From positions 1 through 35,975 of IMG/VR virus record IMGVR_UViG_3300025635_000081: a DNA stretch of 35,975 bases. One strand, written 5' to 3'. The stretch comes from a virus. Taxonomy: Duplodnaviria; Caudoviricetes. The position numbers were made by a program, and so were the translations under genes. Shown here piece by piece: positions 1 through 33,955 of this stretch. The stretch's first letter is position 1; the number at the start of each line of letters is the position of its first letter. The notes under the pieces were generated by a model. It made no database searches. It was not told the DNA's origin and saw nothing but the letters and a program-made list of their open reading frames with translations.

Positions 1-710
1 TTGGCACGCCCGCCCGCCTTGCGGACGCCTGCGCCCTCTTCGCGAGCCTGCTGGCGCTGACGCTCCATCTCGCGGCGCATGCGCTCCTGATCCGCAGCAG
101 AAGGCGTTTCGTTGGCGTCCTTCTGGGTCGAGTAGCCGCCGTTGTTGCGACCCGCGCGACCTTTCAGAAGCGCGTGGATCATCTTTCCTTCGCGACCACC
201 AATCTTCTGGCGCGAACTGGCAATCGCTTTGTCAACAGATTCCTTGCTGTAGGTCGGGCGAGAGACGTTTTCAGGCTTGTCGGTACGCATGCCTGCGGGC
301 GGCGGGGTCATCGGCATGTCGTCAGCCTTGCCGCCATCGGCCTTCTTCGCAACGCCGCCCTTTTTCATTCCACCAACATGCTTGATGCCCTCGCGCTCTT
401 CGTTGGCGTCCTTCACATTGCGATTGATCTTGGCGTTCATCCATTCCTTCGCTTCGGCCTTCTCGCTCTCGACCTTGCCGCCCTTCTTGCGCGGCTTGCG
501 ATCGGCGCGCGGCGCGCAGGCCTCGCCTTCGACCTTGCCGCCCGTCTTGTACGTGCGGCGCGAGACCGGGCGCATGCCCGTCTGGACGTCGGCGTTAAGC
601 GGCTCGGCGGGCGACCAGTCGCTGCTGTCCGTCTTGCTGTCCTTCTGCGAGGACATGGCCTTTGCCTTCGCCCTCATTTTGGCCCTGAGGCCCTTTGCCA
701 TCTCACTCAT
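1..710 (-). CDS. Basic, low-complexity putative internal virion protein with repeated xxxGG motifs (3' end runs off the window)
   Basis: Not in the ORF track because it has no stop in the window. ATG at 710 with GGAG upstream; reads MSEMAKGLRAKMRAKAKAMSSQKDSKTDSSDW...YKTGGKV...RKKGGKV...MKKGGVAKKADGGK...RNNGGY...RKAGGRA, open to position 1. Confidence 0.8.
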   Translation of the reverse strand, partial: MSEMAKGLRAKMRAKAKAMSSQKDSKTDSSDWSPAEPLNADVQTGMRPVSRRTYKTGGKVEGEACAPRADRKPRKKGGKVESEKAEAKEWMNAKINRNVKDANEEREGIKHVGGMKKGGVAKKADGGKADDMPMTPPPAGMRTDKPENVSRPTYSKESVDKAIASSRQKIGGREGKMIHALLKGRAGRNNGGYSTQKDANETPSAADQERMRREMERQRQQAREEGAGVRKAGGRA

Positions 711-760: not shown

Positions 761-2233
761 TTACATCCCGTGGCCCGGATGCATGTCCATATTACCATAA
801 ACCGCGCCGCCTCGCTCGTACCGGCGTTTGGTCGTCACAAGCTTATCATCGAAGACGACGTAGTTGCGGGAACCTTCGCCAGCAGAGCGAGAGGCTTGGT
901 CGAGGTATTTGATACCGGGGATGCCCAACTCTCTGAATAAATCAGTGGCTTTGGCATTTTGTTTGTCGATTTGAGAAACCGCGCGCCATAAGTCCTCCCC
1001 CTTTTGCGTCAATTGACGGTGGGGTGGATATTTTTCTGGATTACGCTCTTCGTCATCTAGTTTCTCTAAAAGATAACCAAGTTTTATTTTAGCTCGTTCT
1101 TCGCTCGGCTTAGAAAGTCTGTCGTATTCCTGCCAAAGCGGATGAGACGGTTCGTAATCAATAACTCTTCCGTTCTCAACCATGTCAGAATTTAATTTGT
1201 CCCAATTTGAATATGCATCTCTTACTTCTCTTTCACCGCCAAACTTGTTTAGAACATTTGACAATATATTTTTTTGATCTCTTAAAGGCTTGTCCCAATC
1301 AATAAAATGATCTGGATGAGCATTTATTTTGACTTCATACATATGGCCTTTATGAGGAACGGCTTGTGCAGATTTTGCAGCATACAGCTTTTCTAAATCA
1401 CGATTGATCTTGTCAGCATTTTCAGGCTGGGACTCCAGAAGGCCGGACGCCCTCTCTATTGCATTATCAATGTTTTTATACGCGGCGTTTCTAAGATTCA
1501 TATGTTCAAGATTGTAGGGATCAAATATTTCTCCAGCTGATGTCTTATATGTACCAGACGACAATTTGTCTCGATAGCCTAACGCGACAGGCTCTGCCTC
1601 TGCGAAATACAACCCATGACCATAAGATTGCGCACCTTCGCCAGTGCCGATCTTAGAAATGTCGAACTGATCAAACTCATGAGGCGACCCATGATAGGCC
1701 GTAATGCCTTGATCTTCGTCGTCCACCGTGCCGCCTTCGGCTTTGGTTATCTCAGGATTGTTGGGATCAAACGTGCCTTGATTGCCGGTGGCGGATTTGA
1801 TTTGCTCAGGATGAAATGCAACATACTCTTTTACTTTATCTTTTGTTCCATAATCGAGAACTACTCCGTCATAACCTGCATCAATTAATCGATTTCTAAA
1901 GTCATCAGCAGCGAACGGGTCTTCCATGAGGGCGTTCTTTATGGCCGTCTTGTGCTCCGGTGTTGCATAAAACGGGTTCTTCAACGCCAAATGAACCGGC
2001 ATGACATTCGGGGACTTGCCGGGTTTGATCATTGAATAACTGTTTGCCAGAGACGGGCTATTCGTGAAATAGAAACCGCGACCTAACCAGCCAGCGTCTT
2101 TTTTGTTGGCGCTGTGAAGTCGAAACTCAGAAAAGTCGTCTGCGGTGCCGTGGTACAGGCGAAGAGGATCGCCCGCCTCATCAACAGCATGACTGTCTCG
2201 TATAAAGGATCTGAGGTTCTCTTCACGCGACAT
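761..2233 (-). CDS. Polyvalent-type protein with two tandem ADP-ribosyltransferase-like (ART-PolyVal-like) domains
   Basis: Domain 1: LYHGT...GRGFYFT...GYDGV...EYVAFHPEQIKSATGNQGTFD. Domain 2: AYHGSPH.FDQF...GTGEGAQSYGHGLYFAE...GIPGIKYLD...NYVVFDD. ATG at 2233 overlaps the upstream stop (TGATG). Confidence 0.75.
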   Translation of the reverse strand: MSREENLRSFIRDSHAVDEAGDPLRLYHGTADDFSEFRLHSANKKDAGWLGRGFYFTNSPSLANSYSMIKPGKSPNVMPVHLALKNPFYATPEHKTAIKNALMEDPFAADDFRNRLIDAGYDGVVLDYGTKDKVKEYVAFHPEQIKSATGNQGTFDPNNPEITKAEGGTVDDEDQGITAYHGSPHEFDQFDISKIGTGEGAQSYGHGLYFAEAEPVALGYRDKLSSGTYKTSAGEIFDPYNLEHMNLRNAAYKNIDNAIERASGLLESQPENADKINRDLEKLYAAKSAQAVPHKGHMYEVKINAHPDHFIDWDKPLRDQKNILSNVLNKFGGEREVRDAYSNWDKLNSDMVENGRVIDYEPSHPLWQEYDRLSKPSEERAKIKLGYLLEKLDDEERNPEKYPPHRQLTQKGEDLWRAVSQIDKQNAKATDLFRELGIPGIKYLDQASRSAGEGSRNYVVFDDKLVTTKRRYERGGAVYGNMDMHPGHGM

Positions 2234-4035
2234 CACCGTTCTCCCGTGAAGAACGGATCACCTGCCTCCGAAGTGACGATGTGAATGCCGGGGACCTTGT
2301 GAGCGGGATGCGAGCCGAAGGCTACTTGACCTCGCCGCCCTCCTTCTTGTGCGGCTTTTGAAGATGACGAGGTAAATCCGCCTCGTGCTCGGCGGTCCAT
2401 TCCTTCGGAGGGTTCCCCATATGGGACAGCTCCAGATAGGTTTCCCGGTTCACCGGAACCTTGAGACGGTGCATCAGGCTGACCAGCGGATCCGTCTCTG
2501 TACCATGATGGCGGTCTGAGGCCATTGCTCGCTCCTGCGATTTCGAATGTCTGTTTGACTGCTTGGTCACGATTAATTCTCCCTGCACGATATTGATCCC
2601 AAATTTGATCGACCCTATCGACGTTTTTGCCTCTCTTGAACGTATCAGGGAACAGGCTCCTGACAGCTTCCCAAGTTATAGACTGCATTTGCCGGGGCAG
2701 CAATCCGCGCTCCTGAGCTGCCCGTCGATAAGCCTCGGCAAAGATCGGATAGGTTCCGCGAATGCCGGTCACATCAGAGCCGCCCGCGCCGGGCGTACCC
2801 TTGGGTGGGCTGGTGTCGAGATTGTGCGCAACTTCCAATGATGACCCGGACAACGGGCGCAGCAGCCCTGCCGCCACTGCATGCGTATCCATCGTAACGT
2901 CGCCGTGCTTTGAATAGGGCGAGATAATATTGTTATAGAAGTTGCGGACCTTGTGCTTCTCGCCCATGAGTTGTGACAACTCAGATGGATCCTGCGCCTC
3001 GACCGAGCGGATAGCCTTGGCAATCTCAACCAAGGAACCCCAGCCAGCGCCTTTATCCGTCCCGCTGTTGGTCTTCACGTTGTCAGCGAAGTCGCCTTCG
3101 GGCGTGATTATCTTGTGCGCTGGAGAATTGTGCGCCTCGTCATACAGGCGGATCCACATCGCCTTGGCCACAGCCTTCTCTTTCGGCGGCAGGGGCAGTT
3201 TGTCGAGATCGCCAAGAGACTTGCCAGAAAGCATCGCATAGACAGGCTTGTAGACATCTTTGTTCAGCGAATAGGGAACACCCTTATCGTTCACGCTGTT
3301 AAAGCGCGCGTCCATCTCCGGGCTGAACTTGAACTGATTGTAGAAGTCCTCATGCCCGTGCGGCTTGATCGCCAACTGGCCATTGCCGCGCAGAGCGTCA
3401 AGCACGCGCTCGGCGCGCGAAACGTTCGCGTACCAATCCGTCTGCGGCGACAAAGCGGCAATCGCACCGGCCACCGAGTAATTCGGTACGCCGTACTTCT
3501 GCGACCAATCATCGGAAATTCTGCGACCGCCGTCGTACCAGAGCTTGCTGCGATCCCGAATGTGTTCCGGAACTGCGTCGTGCAGTGTCAACAGGTTGTC
3601 TTTTACATGATTGATGAAGTGTTCCATTACTTCATCATCACTTGCGCCAACCATGCTTTCTGGCATGTTCTTGTAGGTACGGAGCACGTCGGCCTGCTTC
3701 GAATAGAGCTTAGGCGTACTGCGCAGCGTCTCCATGTCGACCTTGGGCCGGTCGTTCGGATCGCGCTTGCGCCCGGCCTTCTCAGCCAGCAGGCGCTGCG
3801 GAATCCAAGCCGGATGGTCTTCCAGCTCAAGTCCCATTGATGGCTGCGGGTTATCCTGAGCCGGTTTTGCCCGACCACCCTTGGCCATATGCTGCTGGTG
3901 CATCCCGTACACTTGGCCGGCAAGTTTGCGCCATTCATCCATCGCGTCATACAGCGGCGCGGTCTTTCCACCCTCCGCCCTGCGAGGACGCACTGACTGC
4001 ATGACCTGTTTGGCAAGGCGAACGGTGTAATCCAT
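2233..4035 (-). CDS. Putative virion effector with a probable HhH-GPD/glycosylase-like (DUF7178-like) domain
   Basis: Motifs WYD...AGAIAALSPQ.DW..N, KVRNFYNN, VTMDTHAV, MQSITWE. Start moved to ATG 4035 (MDYTVRLAK), just past the stop of the preceding gene. Confidence 0.6.
   Translation of the reverse strand: MDYTVRLAKQVMQSVRPRRAEGGKTAPLYDAMDEWRKLAGQVYGMHQQHMAKGGRAKPAQDNPQPSMGLELEDHPAWIPQRLLAEKAGRKRDPNDRPKVDMETLRSTPKLYSKQADVLRTYKNMPESMVGASDDEVMEHFINHVKDNLLTLHDAVPEHIRDRSKLWYDGGRRISDDWSQKYGVPNYSVAGAIAALSPQTDWYANVSRAERVLDALRGNGQLAIKPHGHEDFYNQFKFSPEMDARFNSVNDKGVPYSLNKDVYKPVYAMLSGKSLGDLDKLPLPPKEKAVAKAMWIRLYDEAHNSPAHKIITPEGDFADNVKTNSGTDKGAGWGSLVEIAKAIRSVEAQDPSELSQLMGEKHKVRNFYNNIISPYSKHGDVTMDTHAVAAGLLRPLSGSSLEVAHNLDTSPPKGTPGAGGSDVTGIRGTYPIFAEAYRRAAQERGLLPRQMQSITWEAVRSLFPDTFKRGKNVDRVDQIWDQYRAGRINRDQAVKQTFEIAGASNGLRPPSWYRDGSAGQPDAPSQGSGEPGNLSGAVPYGEPSEGMDRRARGGFTSSSSKAAQEGGRRGQVAFGSHPAHKVPGIHIVTSEAGDPFFTGER
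2322..2525 (-). CDS. Nested (overprinted) 67-aa protein inside the 3' end of the 2233-4035 gene
   Basis: AGGAG 6 nt before ATG 2525; MASDRHHGTETDPLVSLMHRLKVPVNRETYLELSHMGNPPKEWTAEHEADLPRHLQKPHKKEGGEVK is protein-like and ends in the xxxGG motif. Confidence 0.65.
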   Translation of the reverse strand: MASDRHHGTETDPLVSLMHRLKVPVNRETYLELSHMGNPPKEWTAEHEADLPRHLQKPHKKEGGEVK

Positions 4036-4036
4036 A

Positions 4037-4957
4037 TCAGCGTCCGTGAACGAGAAGGTGGTGGATGATCTCAAGCGCCTTATGGACGGGGTCCGGCTTC
4101 GGCGCACCCTTGGCCTTGATCGTGCCGCCATCAGCCTCTTGCTGACGCTCAGGCATGTTGGCCTGCATCAAGGCACTAGCACGAACAAAATCCGCTGCAC
4201 TGCCTGTTTCGTTGTAACGGGTCCAAGCGTCCCGCACTGCATTTGTGCGCGCGGCCATTGTTGCTTCTGCAGCTGGCGGCTGCGGTGCAAGGCTATCCGG
4301 GCGCTGAGGAGGTAGCGGCACGCCGGCAGCCTGACGCGCAACCTGAACGGCGCGAGCGGCGGGGGAAGGCGCAGGCATGCGATCATACCCGCCCACCGGC
4401 TGCCCCACAGGAGGTACTTCCCGCATGCGGTCGTAGCCGCCTACAGGCTCACCAATCGGACCTTCGCCTTGCGCAGATGTTTGAACCGGCGCTGCCGCAG
4501 CGGGTGGAACAACCGACGGGGCAGAAGCAGGAGCGGCTTGCGCGGGGGCATTATTGCCCATTATTAACCGGGCAATATCTATTGCCGGCGGCTCTTGTAC
4601 GTTAGCGGCCCGGCCAATCTGATCTTCAATATAACGCTGATAAAGCGGATGCTCTAAACGTCTTTCCGCCTCTCCCATTGCGGCTTCAGAAGCGCGAGCC
4701 CGTGAAATCGGATTAACTTGACGAGCACCATATCCCATCAAAGTCTGAAACCCGGGACGACGCGTCTGGATCTCCTGAAGACGCTGCTGATTGCGCGCTT
4801 GCGCAACAAGCCTTTCAATCTCGGCTCGTTGAACTGCTGCCAATTCTTCCGGGTCAAGCGGTCTCTCTACCATCTCCGGGCGAGTTGGCGTCAAGATACG
4901 CAACATTTCGCTTGTGACTTCAGGGCGATAAAAATAATAACGTGGATTATCAACCAT
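4037..4957 (-). CDS. Pro/Ala-rich hypothetical internal virion protein
   Basis: Coupled to the portal stop (TGATG); internal duplication PVGGYDRM x2; C-terminal EADGGTI...VHKALEII. Confidence 0.75.
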   Translation of the reverse strand: MVDNPRYYFYRPEVTSEMLRILTPTRPEMVERPLDPEELAAVQRAEIERLVAQARNQQRLQEIQTRRPGFQTLMGYGARQVNPISRARASEAAMGEAERRLEHPLYQRYIEDQIGRAANVQEPPAIDIARLIMGNNAPAQAAPASAPSVVPPAAAAPVQTSAQGEGPIGEPVGGYDRMREVPPVGQPVGGYDRMPAPSPAARAVQVARQAAGVPLPPQRPDSLAPQPPAAEATMAARTNAVRDAWTRYNETGSAADFVRASALMQANMPERQQEADGGTIKAKGAPKPDPVHKALEIIHHLLVHGR

Positions 4958-7239
4958 CACTGACCTCCCGGTCCTGCGGGCGGCATCAGGCCCGGTTGTG
5001 CTTCTTGCTCTGACCGCGCGATGTCTTCCATCGTCGGACGAATCAACGGATCAACGATCTCCGCGCTATAGGGATGCACGGCAAGGTTCTGCGCCAAATC
5101 CACAAGCTGAATACGCTCACGAGACGCGCGATCGGCTGCGCGGCTTTCAAGCTCGCGCTGCGCAATCTCCATCTCATTCTGCGCCTTCATCATATCAATC
5201 TGCGCCTTCATCATGTCGGTCTCGCCCTTCACCTGCGAGAGATGCTGGCGAGACTGAGCATCCATCATGGATGCGTTGGCCTTCATGCTGTCAGCTTGAG
5301 ACTTCGCTTGCTTCTCCAAAAGCTCGGGCGGCGGATTACCCATCGTCTGCGGAGGCACCATGAACTGCTGCGGGTTGCTCCAACCCATCGCCTGCAAGGC
5401 AGCCGTGTCGATGGCAATCGGGTCGTACATCGAGGGATTGCCCGCCTGCAATTGCTTCAGGCCCATGATCTTCATCATGCGCTGCGTTTGAGACGCCGTA
5501 TTCGGATCAGCCTGCGGCACTAGGTCGCAGTCATTCAAAGCCTGAAGGAACGTCTGCTGATCCCACTGATACGCAGGGCACCGATTACGTTGCCAGAAGG
5601 CTTCCGGGTTCTCCTTAAAACACTCAACCAGAAGCCTGAACTCCTCGGCCTGCGCCGCGTGCATGCGCTTGTGGACGCTGTTCAGGATTTTCGTCGCCTG
5701 ATCGATCAGCGCCAGCGTCGTGCCCACCGGGGCATCTGACTTGCCCTCACCGACAGCCATCTCAGCCGTGCCGCCCACGCGCTGGCCGGTCTCGGCCATG
5801 TTCTGCACAAGGTTCATCAGCGCGCCGCCCGGCTCCTTGTACGGCAGGGGCATGATGGCCTGATTGATCGGCAGGCCGCCCGTCTTCACAGGCGCACCGC
5901 CGCCCGGAGGCACGCGGAAGATGTTGGTATTCTGGCGCAGCCCGCTGTCGGCGATCAAGAAGCCGGGGAAGTTGGCAAACATGCCGGCGTCAAGCATCTC
6001 GCGCCATGCCGCCGTGATGGCATTCGTCGTGTTGCCCAGAATGTGCAGCAAGCCAATGTCGTAGAACCCAAGGCCCGGCACGAACGTGTATTTCACGAAG
6101 GTCTTGCGCGCTTCAGGCAGGGGGCTGGCGCACTCCTCGGTCGGTTCCTCGTAATTGCGCACGATGCTCAGAATCTCGCGCGAAGACACGTCGATCGTCA
6201 CGCGGTACGGGATCTCAAGCCCCGTCTCCTTGCCCTTGAACTTGTGCTCGAAGCCCCGAATATCCAGCTCGCAATAGCACTCGTAAATCTCGCGGTCGCG
6301 GTCCTCTGGCCGGAAACTACCCTGCGAAATGCCCTGCTGGTCCTTCTTGGCGCGCTGCGCGGCGTCTTCCTTGGCCTCCATCGGCGTCGTCAGGTCGATG
6401 TCGCGATAAACCCCAAGAATCTGAAGCCTCTTCACCGTCGAGGGCTTCATGAACACTCGATGCGTCACGCGCTTGGCGTTATCGAGGTCCGTGGCCGAAT
6501 TGTTTACAATCAAGTCATCGGCGTCGACCGTCTCGCTCACCGGCCTGTTGCGCAGCGGGCAGAAGTAAACCTTCTTGAACGCTGTCCCGCCGAACCCAAG
6601 CATAAACAGCATGCGGTCGGTATCAGGATAATACTCGCTCGCTGTCGTCGTGAGATAGTGATTCAGGTCGCGCTGCAGGGCATTGGCAAGCTGATCTTCC
6701 TGCAAATTCGCATTGTTATTGTCGTTGCGGATCTTTACCGGCCCATCTGTCGGCAGCAGCTCAGACCGGGCATTGGCTTGGAAACGGAGGACCGCCTCGA
6801 GAAGCAGCGGGTGGCGTACGCGAGACATTCCCTCCACCGGAGCCCCGTCAGGCGTTCCCCCGAGCCCCGGAATCTCAATTTTGAGACCCAAAAGCTTGAT
6901 CCCTTGCGCGCGATCATCAACCCACTCGGTACGCGACTGCACGTCGTCGTCGATGCCGTTCAGCAGCTCCTCGGCGATCCGGCTCAACTCGCCGCTGTCG
7001 ATGTCCTCGACAAGATTATCGTACCAGCCCTCCGGCCCGCGCTCGTCCCCGTCCCGCAGAGGCTTACCGTCAATCGAGATCGTGATCGACCCGTCGTCAT
7101 GCTCGATGCGCATGATTTCGCCGTTGTCGTTGGCCCTCTCCTTGTCCTCGCCGGGGATCAGTTGCACGACCGGCATAACGTCCAGTTCCTCTTGCGGGAT
7201 CTGGCGAATGTTCGGCACGAGGCCCGGCGTCATGGGCAT
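4957..7239 (-). CDS. Portal protein (podovirus/P22-like)
   Basis: 760 aa downstream of terL; HPLLLEAVLRFQANARSELLP, GTAFKKVY, GFYDIGLLH, VGTTLALI, and a coiled-coil C-terminal barrel. Confidence 0.9.
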   Translation of the reverse strand: MPMTPGLVPNIRQIPQEELDVMPVVQLIPGEDKERANDNGEIMRIEHDDGSITISIDGKPLRDGDERGPEGWYDNLVEDIDSGELSRIAEELLNGIDDDVQSRTEWVDDRAQGIKLLGLKIEIPGLGGTPDGAPVEGMSRVRHPLLLEAVLRFQANARSELLPTDGPVKIRNDNNNANLQEDQLANALQRDLNHYLTTTASEYYPDTDRMLFMLGFGGTAFKKVYFCPLRNRPVSETVDADDLIVNNSATDLDNAKRVTHRVFMKPSTVKRLQILGVYRDIDLTTPMEAKEDAAQRAKKDQQGISQGSFRPEDRDREIYECYCELDIRGFEHKFKGKETGLEIPYRVTIDVSSREILSIVRNYEEPTEECASPLPEARKTFVKYTFVPGLGFYDIGLLHILGNTTNAITAAWREMLDAGMFANFPGFLIADSGLRQNTNIFRVPPGGGAPVKTGGLPINQAIMPLPYKEPGGALMNLVQNMAETGQRVGGTAEMAVGEGKSDAPVGTTLALIDQATKILNSVHKRMHAAQAEEFRLLVECFKENPEAFWQRNRCPAYQWDQQTFLQALNDCDLVPQADPNTASQTQRMMKIMGLKQLQAGNPSMYDPIAIDTAALQAMGWSNPQQFMVPPQTMGNPPPELLEKQAKSQADSMKANASMMDAQSRQHLSQVKGETDMMKAQIDMMKAQNEMEIAQRELESRAADRASRERIQLVDLAQNLAVHPYSAEIVDPLIRPTMEDIARSEQEAQPGLMPPAGPGGQ

Positions 7240-10415: not shown

Positions 10416-10687
10416 TATTCGAACTCCCTTTCGATGGCTGCGCGACCCAGCGGCAGGTCGGCGAGCATGCCGAGCGCGCTCATGTAAGTGGCGAGGACGG
10501 CCTGCTCTTCGGCGCGTTTGGCGGCGTCCTTTTTGCGCAGGCTGATGACCTGCTTGAGGACTTTGGCGTCGAACCCATTGCCCTTGGCTTCAGTGTAGAC
10601 TTCTTTGATATCGTTGGCGATTGCAGCCTTTTCCTCTTCGAGCTTTTCGATGCGCTCGACGATGGATTGCAGTTGATTATTGGTCAT
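10415..10687 (-). CDS. gapR: GapR-like nucleoid-associated protein (DUF2312/UPF0335)
   Basis: QLQSIVERIEKLEEEKAAIANDIKEVYTEAKGNGFDAKVLKQVISLRK...YMSALGM matches the GapR signature. Confidence 0.9.
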   Translation of the reverse strand: MTNNQLQSIVERIEKLEEEKAAIANDIKEVYTEAKGNGFDAKVLKQVISLRKKDAAKRAEEQAVLATYMSALGMLADLPLGRAAIEREFE

Positions 10688-11094
10688 TTGCCCTTCCTGT
10701 GAACTTTTTTAGAATAATTGGCGTCAACCCTGTTGACAAGAGGGCGCTGTGAAAAACGCTTATTACGCATATTCTCAGCGTGAGAGACACATCTTAAATT
10801 ACTGATTTTATTATTGGACCGGGCACCGTCAATATGGTCGACTATGTCGACCGGGTCTTGGCCTGTATGCAACTTCCAAACAATTCGATGGGCCCCGTAA
10901 TAGACGCCATCTATGCACACGCTAATGTAGCCTTCGCGGTTAACATAACCAGCTTCGTCACCGACTTTGATCCGTTTTACAGGCGGGATTCGCCAAAGAA
11001 GACGCCCGTCGTCGTAACAGAAGAGATCGGCTAGACGCTCAACCGGCGGCAATTGCCGCCACCGAAATTTAATCTTATTTTGTGCGTCAGTCAT
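10684..11094 (-). CDS. HNH homing endonuclease
   Basis: YGAHRIVWKL...VDHIDGARSNNKISNLRCVSHAEN; start at ATG 11094 with AGGAG RBS. Confidence 0.85.
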   Translation of the reverse strand: MTDAQNKIKFRWRQLPPVERLADLFCYDDGRLLWRIPPVKRIKVGDEAGYVNREGYISVCIDGVYYGAHRIVWKLHTGQDPVDIVDHIDGARSNNKISNLRCVSHAENMRNKRFSQRPLVNRVDANYSKKVHRKGK

Positions 11095-11213
11095 CGTCGA
11101 AGCTCCTTTCGACCGATTGATGAGAGGGGTCGGATCGCGCCAACGATCTGGCCCCTTGTTTTCCAAACTTAACTGATTATAGCATCGAAATCAAAATTTT
11201 TCTGTCAAAGCTC

Positions 11214-13948: not shown

Positions 13949-14154
13949 GCGACTGGGACAAGTGGTTTGAAGAGATTGCCGCTGAGACCCGGCGGAAATC
14001 CATAGCCTCAGAACCCGGCGCGAAGGCCAAATCTGAAGCCGAACGCCGCCGCGACATTGAACTGGGGTGGATCACTGAAGACGGCGAGCCCGGCCCCAAC
14101 GCCCCGCAAGACGACGAAAACGAAGACGAGGACGAGGAGGACAACGACCAATGA
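13945..14154 (+). CDS. Hypothetical protein with acidic tail
   Basis: GGGAG RBS; ATGA overlaps on both sides; ends [14 protein letters not shown]. Confidence 0.7.
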
Positions 14155-14333
14155 CCCAGAGCCCCATCCAATTCGAGAAGTCGCCCGACGGCACATACGA
14201 GCTGACCTACTTCGGCAAGGTCTGCGGCTGGGCTCGCAAGGCCGTGTACCCCACGCGCCCCGGCGAGGTGCTGTACCGGGTCGTCTCCGTGCATGGCGAC
14301 GTCCGCCATGTCCGTTCCCTCAACGCCGCCTGA
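14151..14333 (+). CDS. Hypothetical early protein
   Basis: GGAGG RBS; 60 aa. Confidence 0.7.
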
Positions 14334-14353
14334 TGAGTCCATGGGAGAATAGG

Positions 14354-14749
14354 ATGGAGATCAACGGCTATAAAATTGGACCGGGAGCGGACCTCTATAG
14401 GGCGAACCTCGAAGGGGCGGACCTCTATAGGGCGGACCTCGAAGGGGCGAACCTCTATAGGGCGGACCTCGAAGGGGCGAACCTCGAAGGGGCGGACCTC
14501 GAAGGGGCGAACCTCGCCTGTACCTGCCTTGTCGATGGCGGGCAGCGCAGCGACGGTTACCGCTTCGTGGGCTGGGTCAGGAATGGCGTGCTGCAAATCC
14601 GTGCCGGGTGCCGCGACTTCTCGATTACCGAAGCGCGCAAGCATTGGCAGGAGACCAGGGGCGGCACGCCGCTCGGCAGCGAAACCATGGCCATCCTCGA
14701 CCATATCGAGGCCGTCGCCCGCACCCGCGAGCTTATCAAGGGAGAATGA
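14354..14749 (+). CDS. Pentapeptide-repeat protein
   Basis: A(D/N)L(YR/EG) repeated about 9 times, then a phage-type C-terminal domain (RSDGYRF...[17 protein letters not shown]); GGGAG RBS. Confidence 0.85.
14387..14515 (+). repeat. 15-bp tandem repeat (8 full units plus a partial unit) encoding the pentapeptides
   Basis: GCG(G/A)ACCTC(TATAGG/GAAGGG) units. Confidence 0.9.
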
Positions 14750-15198: not shown

Positions 15199-15816
15199 GT
15201 GTCCAATAACCAAAACACATCCCACGCCGTCATGGCGCAGCGGCACGAGCCCGCAGATTCGCTCGATGACTTCCCGACACCGCCGTGGGCTACGCGAGCC
15301 TTGTCACATTTTTTGTTAACCAACGGTCTGATCGAGATTGGTGATCTTGTGAAAGAGCCTGCATGCAATCGTGGCCACATGGTACGGCCCTTAAAAGAAT
15401 TTTTCGTGGTGGCGGGATCTGACATCCACGACTATGGATGCGGGTTTCAAGTTCAGGATTATCTTACCTCGATCAAAATTCTGGTGCCGTGGACCATAAC
15501 TAATCCGCCTTTTCGATTGGCAGAGGCGTTTTATAAAACAGCACGAGAGCGGTCGATGAAAGGTGTCGCGTTTTTTGTGCGGACTGCATTCTTGGAATCG
15601 GTAGGCCGGTATAACGGGATCTTTGCCAATGATCGGCCATCCCACATCCTGCAATTTTCAGAGCGGGTGGTAATTCACAAAGGCAAACTGGCCCCCAAGG
15701 GCAGTACCGCGACGGCATATTGCTGGGTAATCTGGACGGGGAAACCAAGATATACACTATTCCACTGGATACCCCCCTGCCGCAAAGATTTGGAGTACCC
15801 CCATGACTACATCTGA
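15199..15816 (+). CDS. Orphan amino (probably N6-adenine) DNA methyltransferase
   Basis: DDFPTPPWAT, SAM-binding EPACNRGHM, SDIHDYG, catalytic ITNPPF. Confidence 0.85.
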   Translation: MSNNQNTSHAVMAQRHEPADSLDDFPTPPWATRALSHFLLTNGLIEIGDLVKEPACNRGHMVRPLKEFFVVAGSDIHDYGCGFQVQDYLTSIKILVPWTITNPPFRLAEAFYKTARERSMKGVAFFVRTAFLESVGRYNGIFANDRPSHILQFSERVVIHKGKLAPKGSTATAYCWVIWTGKPRYTLFHWIPPCRKDLEYPHDYI

Positions 15817-31708: not shown

Positions 31709-33955
31709 TCAGATGTGACGGTTTGCGACTTCAAGCGCCTTTACGACATGCTCGTCCGGCGTTTGCAGGAGATCTTCAGTGCTCTTGGTGACAGCCTTGC
31801 GCGCGGAATTGGCGAGCGCCCGCAAGTTCACCGCGCCACCCGTGGCGCGTTGGGGGCGTTCTCCGGCAGGTTTCTGCGGCTCAGTTACAGCAACAGGTGC
31901 TGCCCTGCGCGATGTTGTAATGAGCTTGTTCATAAAAGAACGAGCTTCTTGATTTTTTGCCATCAACTCGCCAAGTCGCGACCAAGAATTTGGGTCTGCC
32001 GCTTGTCGAATAATTTCTTCAGCTATTCGACGCTCTCTCGCCGTGTATATTCCTTTTGCCGTTGACGCCAATAGAGCGCCTGCAATCATTGATGGACTGA
32101 CGTTGAAGGCCAATGCATTTTGCAATGCAAATTCACCGCCGCGAGCAATTGTTGCGAGAACTTCAGCACCAACGCCACCAGCCGCCGCCGCCCCCCAATA
32201 TCCGCTGGAAGAAGGAGCGCCGGCGAGTTCTTTGACTTTGCTGTTCAGAAACTGTGCATTCGCTCTGGCAATCATCTGATTTGCCATTTCATTGCCAAGG
32301 GCGAATTGCGCCTTGCGTATTTCAAGAGGTGCATTCTTTCCTGTAAAAAGACCAAGCGCCGCAGAAGGATTTTTATCAAGCATATCCCGATATGCTCCAG
32401 CATATCCGTATGCAAAATCCGCTCTTTGCTCTGGCGTAAGTTTATTAGAAGCAAAGTTCTGTTTCGAATTTAGGCTCTTTGATGCTTTATCGCCAAAGTA
32501 TCTATAACCCGCATCCATAGCGTTTCGAGCGCCGTACAATTCAGCGCCTTCAAAACGAATCTTTGGATATTCAGTTACAATTTTATCAAGAGGATCTGTA
32601 ATTGACTTTTTCAGCGCCTGAAGAGTGCTTATTTCACTACCGGTTCCGGGCTTTGGAGCTTTTGTTACAGGATCGTAAAGCTTATTGATGCTGTCGTCGA
32701 CATACTGTTTTGCTTCGTCCCAGAATTTCAAATTTGCACCAGTTGGAGCAATTTTAAAATCGCGACCAGTCTGTATAAGGCCAACGGAAGAGGGACTTTC
32801 TCCGCGTGCAATCATGCTACGGCCAATGTCATTGACAAACTGATCGCCAAACATAGTGCGAAGTCTTGTCTCAGCAGAAGCTATAGCGGCTGGGGCTATA
32901 ACCTGCGCCTCTGGGAGAGCCATTACTCTGGCATAATTTCTGTTGTTGACGTCTCTCACGCGACTGGCAAGAGAATCCATTTCAGCCAATGCGTTTACCG
33001 GAGTTCCACGGCCAACAATCTCATCAATATGAGACTGCAACTTAGGAACAGCTTGAGATCGGAAATCCTGTATTGCTTGATTAAAAGCGCCTTGAGTTGC
33101 CTCGCTTGCGCGGCCAGACGCTTCTCTTATCAATTTCTGCGTCTGTGTTCCGGCAAGAGCAGCGGGCGGCAAACCTTCTTCGATTGCAGCCGGAATTTGA
33201 CCTCGTGCAGTTGCTGCAGTCACATCACGAGACATTGTTTGGCCAAGCCGCTCAGATGCAGCGGTAGATGGAGACAATAAAGACTTTCCGGCACCAGCAA
33301 CTTTTCCATAAAGACCAGAGCCAGCCATGCCTCCCGCGAGGGCGGCACCAAGCTGCCCTGCGGTTTGATAACCTGTTCCTTCAAGGGGCGTCTTTTCTAG
33401 AAATTGTTCTACGCCTCGTGAAGCCAACCCCGCGCCCACAGCTCCAGCGGCGCGCGCGCCAAGACCAAGTGCGCCTCCGGGTATGACAGCCGCTGGCAAA
33501 AATTCTGCTCCACTTTTTATATATTTTGCCAGTTCACCTTGAGGTTTATATTGAGTTGTTTCTTGAATTGATGGAAAAGCCTTTTCAGCACCAGAAATAA
33601 CCTGCGCCCCTGTTGGAAGAGCGGACTCGGCACCAACATTATAGCCAAGTTTTCTGAGACCAAGCCTGCCAAGAGTTTCTATGTCGCCCGGAAGCCCAGC
33701 AAGGCTTAATGCGCCGCGAGCCGCGCCTGCTTGGGCAGCACGCTTGATATCTTCGCCAAATGGGACTTGCGGAGCGGCAGTTTGGGAAGGTGCAGCAACT
33801 GATTCAAGACTAGGAAGATTTTTGAAATAATCTTCTTCAGCCTGATGAGTAGTTTGCGTACTAGGATTAGGCGAAGCAAGATTAAGAGAAGGAAGAGACT
33901 TGAAGTACTCTTCTTCTTTGTCAATCAAGCCGGGAGAAGTTTGTGGATTTGCCAT
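31709..33955 (-). CDS. Large internal/ejection virion protein
   Basis: 748 aa, Ala/Gly-rich hydrophobic segments, position upstream of the tail fibre; C-terminal QRATGGAV...VVKALEVA. Confidence 0.7.
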   Translation of the reverse strand: MANPQTSPGLIDKEEEYFKSLPSLNLASPNPSTQTTHQAEEDYFKNLPSLESVAAPSQTAAPQVPFGEDIKRAAQAGAARGALSLAGLPGDIETLGRLGLRKLGYNVGAESALPTGAQVISGAEKAFPSIQETTQYKPQGELAKYIKSGAEFLPAAVIPGGALGLGARAAGAVGAGLASRGVEQFLEKTPLEGTGYQTAGQLGAALAGGMAGSGLYGKVAGAGKSLLSPSTAASERLGQTMSRDVTAATARGQIPAAIEEGLPPAALAGTQTQKLIREASGRASEATQGAFNQAIQDFRSQAVPKLQSHIDEIVGRGTPVNALAEMDSLASRVRDVNNRNYARVMALPEAQVIAPAAIASAETRLRTMFGDQFVNDIGRSMIARGESPSSVGLIQTGRDFKIAPTGANLKFWDEAKQYVDDSINKLYDPVTKAPKPGTGSEISTLQALKKSITDPLDKIVTEYPKIRFEGAELYGARNAMDAGYRYFGDKASKSLNSKQNFASNKLTPEQRADFAYGYAGAYRDMLDKNPSAALGLFTGKNAPLEIRKAQFALGNEMANQMIARANAQFLNSKVKELAGAPSSSGYWGAAAAGGVGAEVLATIARGGEFALQNALAFNVSPSMIAGALLASTAKGIYTARERRIAEEIIRQAADPNSWSRLGELMAKNQEARSFMNKLITTSRRAAPVAVTEPQKPAGERPQRATGGAVNLRALANSARKAVTKSTEDLLQTPDEHVVKALEVANRHI

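What the first reader, a model, noticed from the sequence alone, without database searches (positions are those of the whole stretch)
2322..2525. Overprinted gene nested in the effector's 3' end, with its own RBS and its own xxxGG tag
Seen: inside the 2233-4035 gene a second same-strand frame has AGGAG-N6-ATG and encodes a 67-aa protein (DPLVSLMHRLKVPVNRETYLELSHMGNPPKEWTAEHEADLPRHLQ). Over the same bases the host frame turns into Gly/Pro/Ser-rich linker. The nested product ends KKEGGEVK, and the host frame carries RARGG in the overlap. Inference: a co-packaged partner, such as an inhibitor/immunity protein or cofactor of the enzyme, kept genetically inseparable from it. Standard gene callers would drop it.
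Basis: partly seen in the sequence, partly recalled or inferred. Interest (0 to 1): 0.72.

Follow-up and report, generated by a model that had tools for sequence, protein, structure and literature searches.

The report
Hidden partner inside phage glycosylase gene
A small gene hidden in a second reading frame at the end of a phage DNA-glycosylase-like gene is conserved across many related viruses, and its protein is predicted to bind that enzyme, likely keeping it switched off until the enzyme is delivered into a newly infected cell.

Summary
The nested gene is real. The 67-codon +1-frame ORF (2525-2322, minus strand, AGGAG-N6-ATG) is under purifying selection (pN/pS 0.17-0.41), while the host frame over it is not (1.15-1.73). 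It belongs to an unnamed family: 1,114 clusters, with no Pfam, PHROG or PDB match. It sits at the end of the long-form DUF7178 domain in 81 of 86 non-redundant loci fetched by the host. All 80 viral loci fetched by the small protein have that domain beside it. One free-standing copy and one opposite-strand copy, each with its own ribosome site, show it is a separate gene and not a frameshift tail. The host domain's model matches HhH-superfamily DNA glycosylases (top 22 hits; best Z 9.1) and has invariant Lys/Asp. The pair co-folds (0.75 against best control 0.01), and paired sequences co-vary at the predicted contacts. Best reading: a dedicated inhibitor (safety cap) of a virion-delivered glycosylase; an accessory subunit is the main rival. 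The 'xxxGG tag' is not a family feature, and RARGG is mostly a by-product of the small gene's codons. Two complete phage genomes lack the partner. Translation, binding and activity are untested.

The parts
2322..2525 (-). Small partner gene, 67 aa; conserved core residues 12-56, three helices (13-20, 27-34, 45-50); acidic family
2532..2536 (-). Shine-Dalgarno AGGAG of the small gene, written into host codons Ala-Gly-Ala; ATG formed by host codons Asn-Gly
2334..2348 (-). KKEGG of the small protein; lineage-specific, not a family feature
2233..4035 (-). Host gene, 600 aa, long-form DUF7178, two genes downstream of the portal gene
2500..3822 (-). HhH-superfamily glycosylase-like domain (residues 72-512)
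2990..3378 (-). Helical insert (about residues 220-345; limits approximate), absent from the one short DUF7178 examined; carries most predicted contacts to the small protein
3442..3450 (-). S-P-Q motif (196-198; S and P invariant, Q in 87 of 97); Gln by motif analogy like the void-filling Gln41 of endonuclease III; predicted contact to the partner
2950..2952 (-). Invariant Lys362, candidate catalytic lysine
   Evidence: 97 of 97 hosts
2883..2889 (-). Invariant D-T-H motif start (Asp383, candidate catalytic aspartate; Thr384 is a predicted contact to the partner)
2322..2499 (-). Host-frame read-through linker over the small gene, not under purifying selection; contains RARGG at 2391-2377
2233..2321 (-). 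Conserved host tail after the small gene's stop (HPAHKVPGIHIV...), pN/pS 0.19 against L003, which shows selection on the host frame beyond the overlap
761..2236 (-). Next gene, ART-PolyVal (polyvalent-protein ADP-ribosyltransferase) domains; context only

Best explanation
The nested ORF is a conserved +1-frame gene with its own ribosome-binding site, whose small acidic protein is predicted to bind the glycosylase-fold DUF7178 domain encoded just upstream and likely acts as its dedicated inhibitor. Shown: the gene is conserved and selected in this frame; it is tied to the long-form DUF7178 domain; its start signal is written into the last codons of that domain; the host frame often reads on through it as a free linker to further domains (up to about 1,660 more codons). 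Predicted: a 1:1 complex on the enzyme's helical insert and the rim of the cleft (SPQ, DTH and 396-408 region of the 600-aa protein). Inferred: both proteins are made from the same late mRNA, so the base-excising domain is capped while the phage replicates and packages its DNA. The domain travels in the head as part of a polyvalent/ejection protein, loses the cap when it is ejected into the next cell, and acts on DNA there before new cap is made. Because the partner gene is pinned to the domain's 3' edge, the two move between polyvalent proteins as one module.
For: Selection in the small frame only: pN/pS 0.17, 0.28, 0.41 against 1.64, 1.73, 1.15 in the host frame; over 48 nested loci, amino-acid identity 0.48 against 0.26. 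Linkage: 81 of 86 non-redundant host-fetched loci, and 2 of the other 5 have weak +1 matches; 80 of 80 partner-fetched viral loci (78 in +1, 1 free-standing, 1 opposite strand). Independent initiation: L089 AAGGAG-N5-ATG downstream of the host stop, L195 GGAGG-N7-GTG on the opposite strand; start plus SD in 62 of 76. Host fold: ranks 1-22 of 48,161 chains are all HhH-superfamily glycosylases or their queuine-salvage relative (Tm1821 Z 9.1, rmsd 3.9, 185 aligned); Lys/Asp invariant in 97 of 97. Complex: score 0.75, best of 3 controls 0.01; the mark was reached by 116 of 157 solved and 2 of 215 mismatched pairs; the runs agree in at least 93% of contacts; partner pLDDT at least 80. Covariation in 93 paired loci (not given paired to the model): the top pair of 380 x 45 is host 197 / partner 21, a predicted contact (Z 6.2, large-small swaps such as A-F and L-A); 19 testable of 25 listed contacts have mean Z 1.34 against 0.49 re-paired, p 0.0002. 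The partner core is net negative in 95% of 130 members (median -4), and near-invariant Glu46 is in the interface. Polyvalent context: ART-PolyVal, LPD22, LPD38, RadC and methyltransferase domains in host proteins.
Against: Two complete phage genomes (MZ892992.1 CRP-738; OL791268.1 zth2-2, flagged unverified) keep the catalytic motifs but show no partner (the only hit in CRP-738 is a weak one in the portal gene), nor do L090/L158 and L178 (L090's record is 48% complete). So the domain can be carried without it. The most confident contacts are on the insert, and Lys362, Asp383 and His385 are not among the listed contacts; I could not view coordinates, so blocking of the DNA site is inferred. Interface columns are no more conserved than the rest (0.63 against 0.60). 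The fold Z of 9.1 is modest for a helical protein; Foldseek gave no PDB hit at E below 0.001 and sequence-profile searches of the PDB gave none. The best fold matches are repair enzymes, which need no inhibitor. Shared ancestry can inflate the covariation. There is no evidence here of translation, packaging, toxicity or activity.
Confidence: 0.55

Rival explanations
1. Accessory subunit: the small protein binds the same domain but completes, stabilises or activates it (folding aid for the insert, or a substrate-selecting subunit) and travels with it in the virion, for example to repair or strip altered guanines from incoming phage DNA.
For: The same linkage, complex and covariation results. 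Contacts centre on the insert that the one short, partner-less DUF7178 lacks. The closest folds are 8-oxoguanine repair enzymes. Co-translation from one mRNA suits a subunit as well as an inhibitor.
Against: A permanent subunit next to its enzyme might be expected to fuse with it. No in-frame fusion was seen in 138 contexts, and none of the 18 longer representatives read by eye among the best 150 shows the host motifs. Partner-less hosts keep both insert and catalytic motifs. The protein is acidic and predicted to touch SPQ and DTH. One copy is on the opposite strand.
Confidence: 0.3
2. One reading: the partner is co-packaged into the head through its own C-terminal xxxGG signal.
For: KKEGG/RKEGG in the window, L003 and P0004; similar motifs recur in neighbouring head-module proteins (5 in the 236-aa ORF at 1-710).
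Against: GG is near the C-terminus in only 5 of 115 loci and 6 of 130 representatives, and is absent in the next-closest relatives L004 and L011. The same loose pattern also hits the polymerase and helicase. What the motif does is unknown.
Confidence: 0.06
3. Programmed +1 frameshift: the small ORF is an alternative C-terminal cap of the enzyme, not a separate protein.
For: The offset is +1 in 138 of 138 overlapping contexts; 14 of 76 loci lack a start with an SD in the tested window; a GGAGG-like run often lies just upstream.
Against: Free-standing and opposite-strand copies exist with their own SD. The only possible shift window (between the +1 stop five codons before the Trp and the earliest host stop) has no common slippery codon pair. 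Start plus SD is strongly enriched. A start inside host codons explains the fixed frame.
Confidence: 0.05
4. Chance ORF, or a neighbour with no functional link.
For: Long +1 ORFs are common in this gene (48 of 96).
Against: Purifying selection, 1,114 clusters, reciprocal linkage, complex and covariation.
Confidence: 0.04

Closest known systems
MuF polymorphic toxin-immunity pairs of temperate phages (PMC5576092; passages read)
   Same: Enzyme domain on a head-module protein near the portal gene, followed by a small ORF with no known domain (89.4% of 191 muf toxin genes in that paper).
   Different: No MuF domain was found in the host or in the ten related host proteins scanned. The enzyme has a glycosylase fold. 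The small gene usually lies inside the host gene, and the domain is often internal, not C-terminal. Toxicity is untested.
Ung inhibitors Ugi, p56, SAUGI (PMC10303552 abstract; listing)
   Same: Small viral proteins that block a DNA glycosylase's DNA-binding cleft (acidic character recalled); the model here is analogous.
   Different: They inhibit the host's Ung-family enzyme. This one is predicted to bind the phage's own HhH-superfamily domain, has a three-helix model with no PDB match above Z 2.6, and is encoded within its target's gene.
Polyvalent proteins of phages (PMC5512222; passages read)
   Same: Host proteins carry ART-PolyVal, LPD22, LPD38 and RadC domains; the paper proposes capsid packaging and injection.
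   Different: The word 'glycosylase' does not occur in that paper's main text and 'overlap' has no hit; no nested partner gene turned up in the passages seen.
OGG2/AGOG 8-oxoguanine glycosylases and endonuclease III (HhH superfamily)
   Same: Fold match (3n0u Z 9.1; 1xqp Z 7.8; 2abk Z 5.8). Invariant Lys and Asp are 21 residues apart, against Lys120/Asp138 of endonuclease III (PMC5924532 passages).
   Different: About 10% identity, an insert of over 100 residues, a place in virion-module proteins, and a dedicated partner. The substrate is unknown.
Viral overlapping genes with de novo linkers or extensions (phiX174 A and C extensions; hepatitis B polymerase spacer; PMC8227390 passages)
   Same: One frame is constrained; the other is a flexible linker or extension.
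   Different: Here the two overlapping products are predicted binding partners, and nested and terminal states have switched repeatedly.

Membership tests
Real overlapping protein-coding gene | Purifying selection in the alternative frame | tested here: met
Real overlapping protein-coding gene | Own start codon and SD, above control windows | tested here: met
Real overlapping protein-coding gene | Translation observed | not testable with these tools
   needs ribosome profiling or mass spectrometry
De novo overprinted gene (small frame younger than host frame) | Small frame narrower in distribution and less constrained than the frame it overlaps | tested here: not met
   The small frame is the conserved one; the host frame there is variable, with stops in 15 of 23 non-nested loci. 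The order of origin is not resolved.
HhH-superfamily DNA glycosylase (host domain) | HhH glycosylase fold | tested here: met
   ranks 1-22; modest Z; Foldseek only weak
HhH-superfamily DNA glycosylase (host domain) | Catalytic Lys and Asp in equivalent structural positions | tested here: inconclusive
   Invariant K362 and D383; no residue-level superposition was available, and the profile search gave no glycosylase hit
HhH-superfamily DNA glycosylase (host domain) | Base excision activity | not testable with these tools
   bench assay needed
Effector-immunity pair (MuF-like) | Small gene tightly linked to the effector domain | tested here: met
   exceptions
Effector-immunity pair (MuF-like) | Direct binding | tested here: inconclusive
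   Supported by model and covariation only
Effector-immunity pair (MuF-like) | Toxicity and its neutralisation | not testable with these tools
   bench assay needed
MuF toxin family proper | N-terminal MuF domain | tested here: not met
   no MuF Pfam or PHROG hit
Ugi/p56/SAUGI-type Ung inhibitors | Sequence or fold relationship | tested here: inconclusive
   none listed
xxxGG-tagged protein | Motif conserved across the family | tested here: not met
   5 of 115 and 6 of 130
Programmed +1 frameshift product | Conserved slippery site and dependence on the upstream frame | tested here: not met

The most novel reading that the evidence does not exclude
A widespread phage weapon module: a virion-injected base-excision enzyme that attacks host or rival DNA, paired with a protein inhibitor of an HhH-superfamily glycosylase (my searches found none described), whose gene is written inside the effector's own coding sequence. 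The safety cap would then travel with the domain whenever it is shuffled into a new polyvalent protein, and would be stripped only at ejection.
Probability: 0.35. Interest if true: 0.85.

Novelty: new variant of a known kind. Interest (0 to 1): 0.7.

Why it matters
It adds a large, unnamed small-protein family that annotation hides when it is nested, and gives it a specific, testable partner. If it is an inhibitor, it implies that the DUF7178 domain is dangerous to the phage's own DNA or cell, which argues against simple repair. It would also supply the reagent needed to clone and assay the enzyme, and it would be a natural blocker for a glycosylase superfamily that includes OGG1, MutY and endonuclease III. 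It shows how a domain inside a giant multi-domain protein can keep its own partner gene: by nesting it under a disposable linker. Other internal enzyme domains of polyvalent proteins could be screened for the same arrangement.

Tried and rejected
Family look-ups for the small protein gave nothing: Pfam, PHROGs, PADLOC, PDB by profile, Foldseek, VIA-align best Z 2.6, and ESM Atlas only unnamed clusters below 0.8. The word-index search found one relative. tblastn of one family member against annotated phages found none, though the profile later found one. P0012 and P0040 among the profile hits are long repeats that look spurious by eye. No promoter-like or terminator-like site in 2200-3200. No RNA holder listed. 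The host profile found no NCBIfam family or PDB glycosylase sequence. Literature: 'DUF7178' gave 0 papers; searches listed nothing describing this pair (listings only; subscription journals and supplements not seen). The frameshift, own-tag and chance readings were rejected as above. The direction of origin was not resolved: the quick tree needs 8 changes of the terminal state (at least 5 forced by well-supported branches), with long-branch warnings, and the careful search did not finish. Rows dropped or faulty: 7 of 138 loci had no anchor and about 9 were mis-anchored; 107 were kept and reduced to 48 + 23; 76 non-redundant were kept; 6 of 162 contig-cut loci were left out; the L257 column was out of frame and ignored (read instead); the Lys-Asp spacing count returned empty; two of the three alignments were of wrong frames. 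Only the best 80 of 370 viral and 80 of 498 or more metagenome host loci, and 80 of 163 partner loci, were returned, so distant relatives are under-sampled. Only one short-form DUF7178 locus was examined.

Full report
Observation. The window is a 35,975-base virus record, estimated 65% complete. On the minus strand the order is terminase, portal, a 307-aa gene, the 600-aa gene 4035-2233, and an ART-PolyVal gene. The 600-aa protein matches DUF7178 (E 5.5e-26). Inside its 3' end, AGGAG-N6-ATG opens a 67-codon ORF in the +1 frame. Two viral contigs carry the identical 67-aa ORF and the same host protein, so it is not an assembly error. The ORF's length is unremarkable, since 48 of 96 related hosts have an ATG ORF of 55 aa or more in the +1 frame inside the enzyme domain.

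It is a selected gene. Against three relatives, pN/pS over 56 codons is 0.17, 0.28 and 0.41 in the small frame and 1.64, 1.73 and 1.15 in the host frame. Upstream, the host frame gives 0.09 and 0.16, and the host tail after the small gene's stop gives 0.19. Over 48 non-redundant nested loci the most variable base is the small frame's third position, and amino-acid identity is 0.48 in the small frame against 0.26 in the host frame. Where the host stops earlier, 15 of 23 loci have stops in the host frame over the same 21 codons. So the small protein is the constrained product and the host frame is a linker kept open to reach a conserved tail or further domains (0 to about 1,660 codons). A five-sequence profile finds 1,114 clusters at E up to 0.001. 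The best 150 are mostly 40-150 aa, with consensus D-x5-M-x4-I-P-x-T-R-E-N-Y-L-x-L-A-Y-x-G-x-P-P-x-E-L-x-A-E-x-E-A-x-L-P. No Pfam, PHROG or PDB family was matched. The model has three helices, with mean pLDDT 76.

It is tied to one domain. Of 162 loci fetched with the host domain, 6 were cut by contig ends. Of the 86 non-redundant remainder, 81 have the partner at E up to 0.01; L129 and L177 have weak +1-frame matches; L090, L158 and L178 have none. Of 80 viral loci fetched with the small protein, all 80 have the host domain adjacent. Among 147 distinct junctions, 138 have the partner overlapping, always in +1; of 131 anchored, 93 are fully nested and 38 overlap only the end. These counts include close relatives and only the best-scoring loci. 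On a quick tree the nested and terminal states alternate (8 changes, at least 5 forced), and the ancestral state is unresolved. Among three GenBank phages with the domain, LS06-2018-MD07 has a divergent nested copy (E 1.7e-6) that its annotation omits; CRP-738 and zth2-2 have none. The one short-form DUF7178 found lacks both the insert and the partner.

It is initiated on its own. The fixed +1 offset raised the idea of a frameshift. Against it, L089 has the gene free-standing after an extended host, with AAGGAG-N5-ATG and a different offset, and L195 has it on the opposite strand, convergent, with GGAGG-N7-GTG. A start with an SD-like motif lies 8-36 codons before the core in 62 of 76 loci (37 with a five-base SD), against 1-15 (0-13) in six upstream +1 windows and 0 in the +2 frame. 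The start has moved among several host codons (Asp-Glu, Asn-Glu, Asn-Gly and others), and no slippery site is shared. Fourteen loci lack such a start in the tested window.

The host domain. The model (pLDDT 92, pTM 0.89) had no significant Foldseek PDB match. VIA-align ranked HhH-superfamily glycosylases and their queuine-salvage relative at 1-22 (Tm1821 OGG Z 9.1, rmsd 3.9, 185 residues). Ser196-Pro197, Lys362, Asp383 and His385 are invariant in 97 hosts, and Gln198 is present in 87. In endonuclease III, Lys120 and Asp138 are catalytic and Gln41 fills the gap left by the flipped base (PMC5924532, passages). The correspondence is by motif order and spacing, not by superposition. Earlier scan notes reached the same fold call for other genomes, and their summaries mention no partner. 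Host proteins carry polyvalent-protein domains, which PMC5512222 proposes are packaged and injected (passages). Packaging here is inferred. A hypermodification transferase of this fold also appears weakly (8z2m, Z 3.9), so the chemistry is not settled.

The pair. The co-fold scored 0.75 in three runs, best of three controls 0.01; 116 of 157 solved and 2 of 215 mismatched pairs reach that mark, counts that hold only roughly with my own alignments; the runs agree in at least 93% of contacts and partner pLDDT is at least 80. No like complex is known to me for the model to recall. Contacts fall mainly on the insert (domain numbering 184-229, 261-268; add 71 for the full protein) and also on Pro126-Gln127, Thr313 and 325-337. 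The two alignments given were not paired by locus, so I tested covariation separately in 93 paired loci (effective number 71). The strongest of 380 x 45 pairs is 197/21, a predicted contact, with size swaps. The 19 testable contacts average Z 1.34 against 0.49 when re-paired (p 0.0002). Kinship can inflate this. Against an active-site plug: the catalytic residues themselves are not listed contacts, and interface columns are not specially conserved.

The xxxGG claims. GG lies in the last 15 residues of 5 of 115 unique partners and 6 of 130 representatives. RAxGG in the host frame is as common where that frame closes early (3 of 34) as where it reads through (6 of 81), and it is the -1 reading of the partner's E-x-E-A-D/E codons. 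Neither supports co-packaging.

Mechanism and verdict. Shown: a conserved, separately started gene pinned to the end of a glycosylase-fold domain. Predicted: direct binding. Inferred: inhibition during late infection, and release on ejection (0.55); an accessory subunit is the main rival (0.30). It works like an effector-immunity pair of the MuF type (PMC5576092, passages) and like the Ung inhibitors (PMC10303552, abstract), but is a member of neither. Searches listed no description of this pair; supplements and subscription papers were not seen. Novelty: new variant of a known kind; interest 0.7.

Noticed in passing
window 1-710, 761-2236, 2233-4035, 4037-4960, 31709-33955 (all minus): Five-residue motifs ending in GG (MAKGG, KAEGG, KADGG, YERGG, RATGG) recur in the head-module proteins, 5 in the 236-aa ORF; a loose pattern also hits polymerase and helicase. 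Possibly protease or packaging sites; function unknown.
   Followed up: partly
window 761-2236 versus L003 5260-6072: The window's gene has two ART-PolyVal-like stretches separated by KAEGG; in L003 the gene begins just after the equivalent point and lacks the first domain, suggesting module exchange at the GG motif.
   Followed up: no
window 2233-2321; L003, L004, L011: A short conserved C-terminal peptide (HP-x-H-x-I/V-PGIHIV...G-x-P-x-F-x-G) under purifying selection ends the host protein; no family known to me.
   Followed up: partly
P0131: The small domain forms the N-terminus of a 364-aa protein with a Zeta-toxin kinase domain; may be a read-through into the next gene.
   Followed up: partly
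P0010, P0075, P0021, P0044: Some family members hold two copies, or one and a partial copy, of the small domain.
   Followed up: no
L257 2690-5197 and L258: In two cultured marine phages the glycosylase-like domain follows a methyltransferase (Pfam hit in L258; motif by eye only in partner-less L257), which hints at a methylation-linked function or alternative self-protection.
   Followed up: partly
L089 2399-2840: The host gained a C-terminal extension of about 145 aa that looks ART-like by eye (no Pfam hit), and the partner gene stands free after it.
   Followed up: partly
L035 and L046: One 138-kb viral contig carries two copies of the host-partner module about 69 kb apart.
   Followed up: no
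host domains generally: The +1 frame is often open inside the enzyme domain (48 of 96 against 4 of 96 for +2), a ready substrate for new overlaps.
   Followed up: partly
window 14057-14749 (+), 15199-15816 (+), 10684-11166 (-): By eye: a pentapeptide-repeat protein, a DNA methyltransferase-like protein and an HNH-like protein.
   Followed up: no
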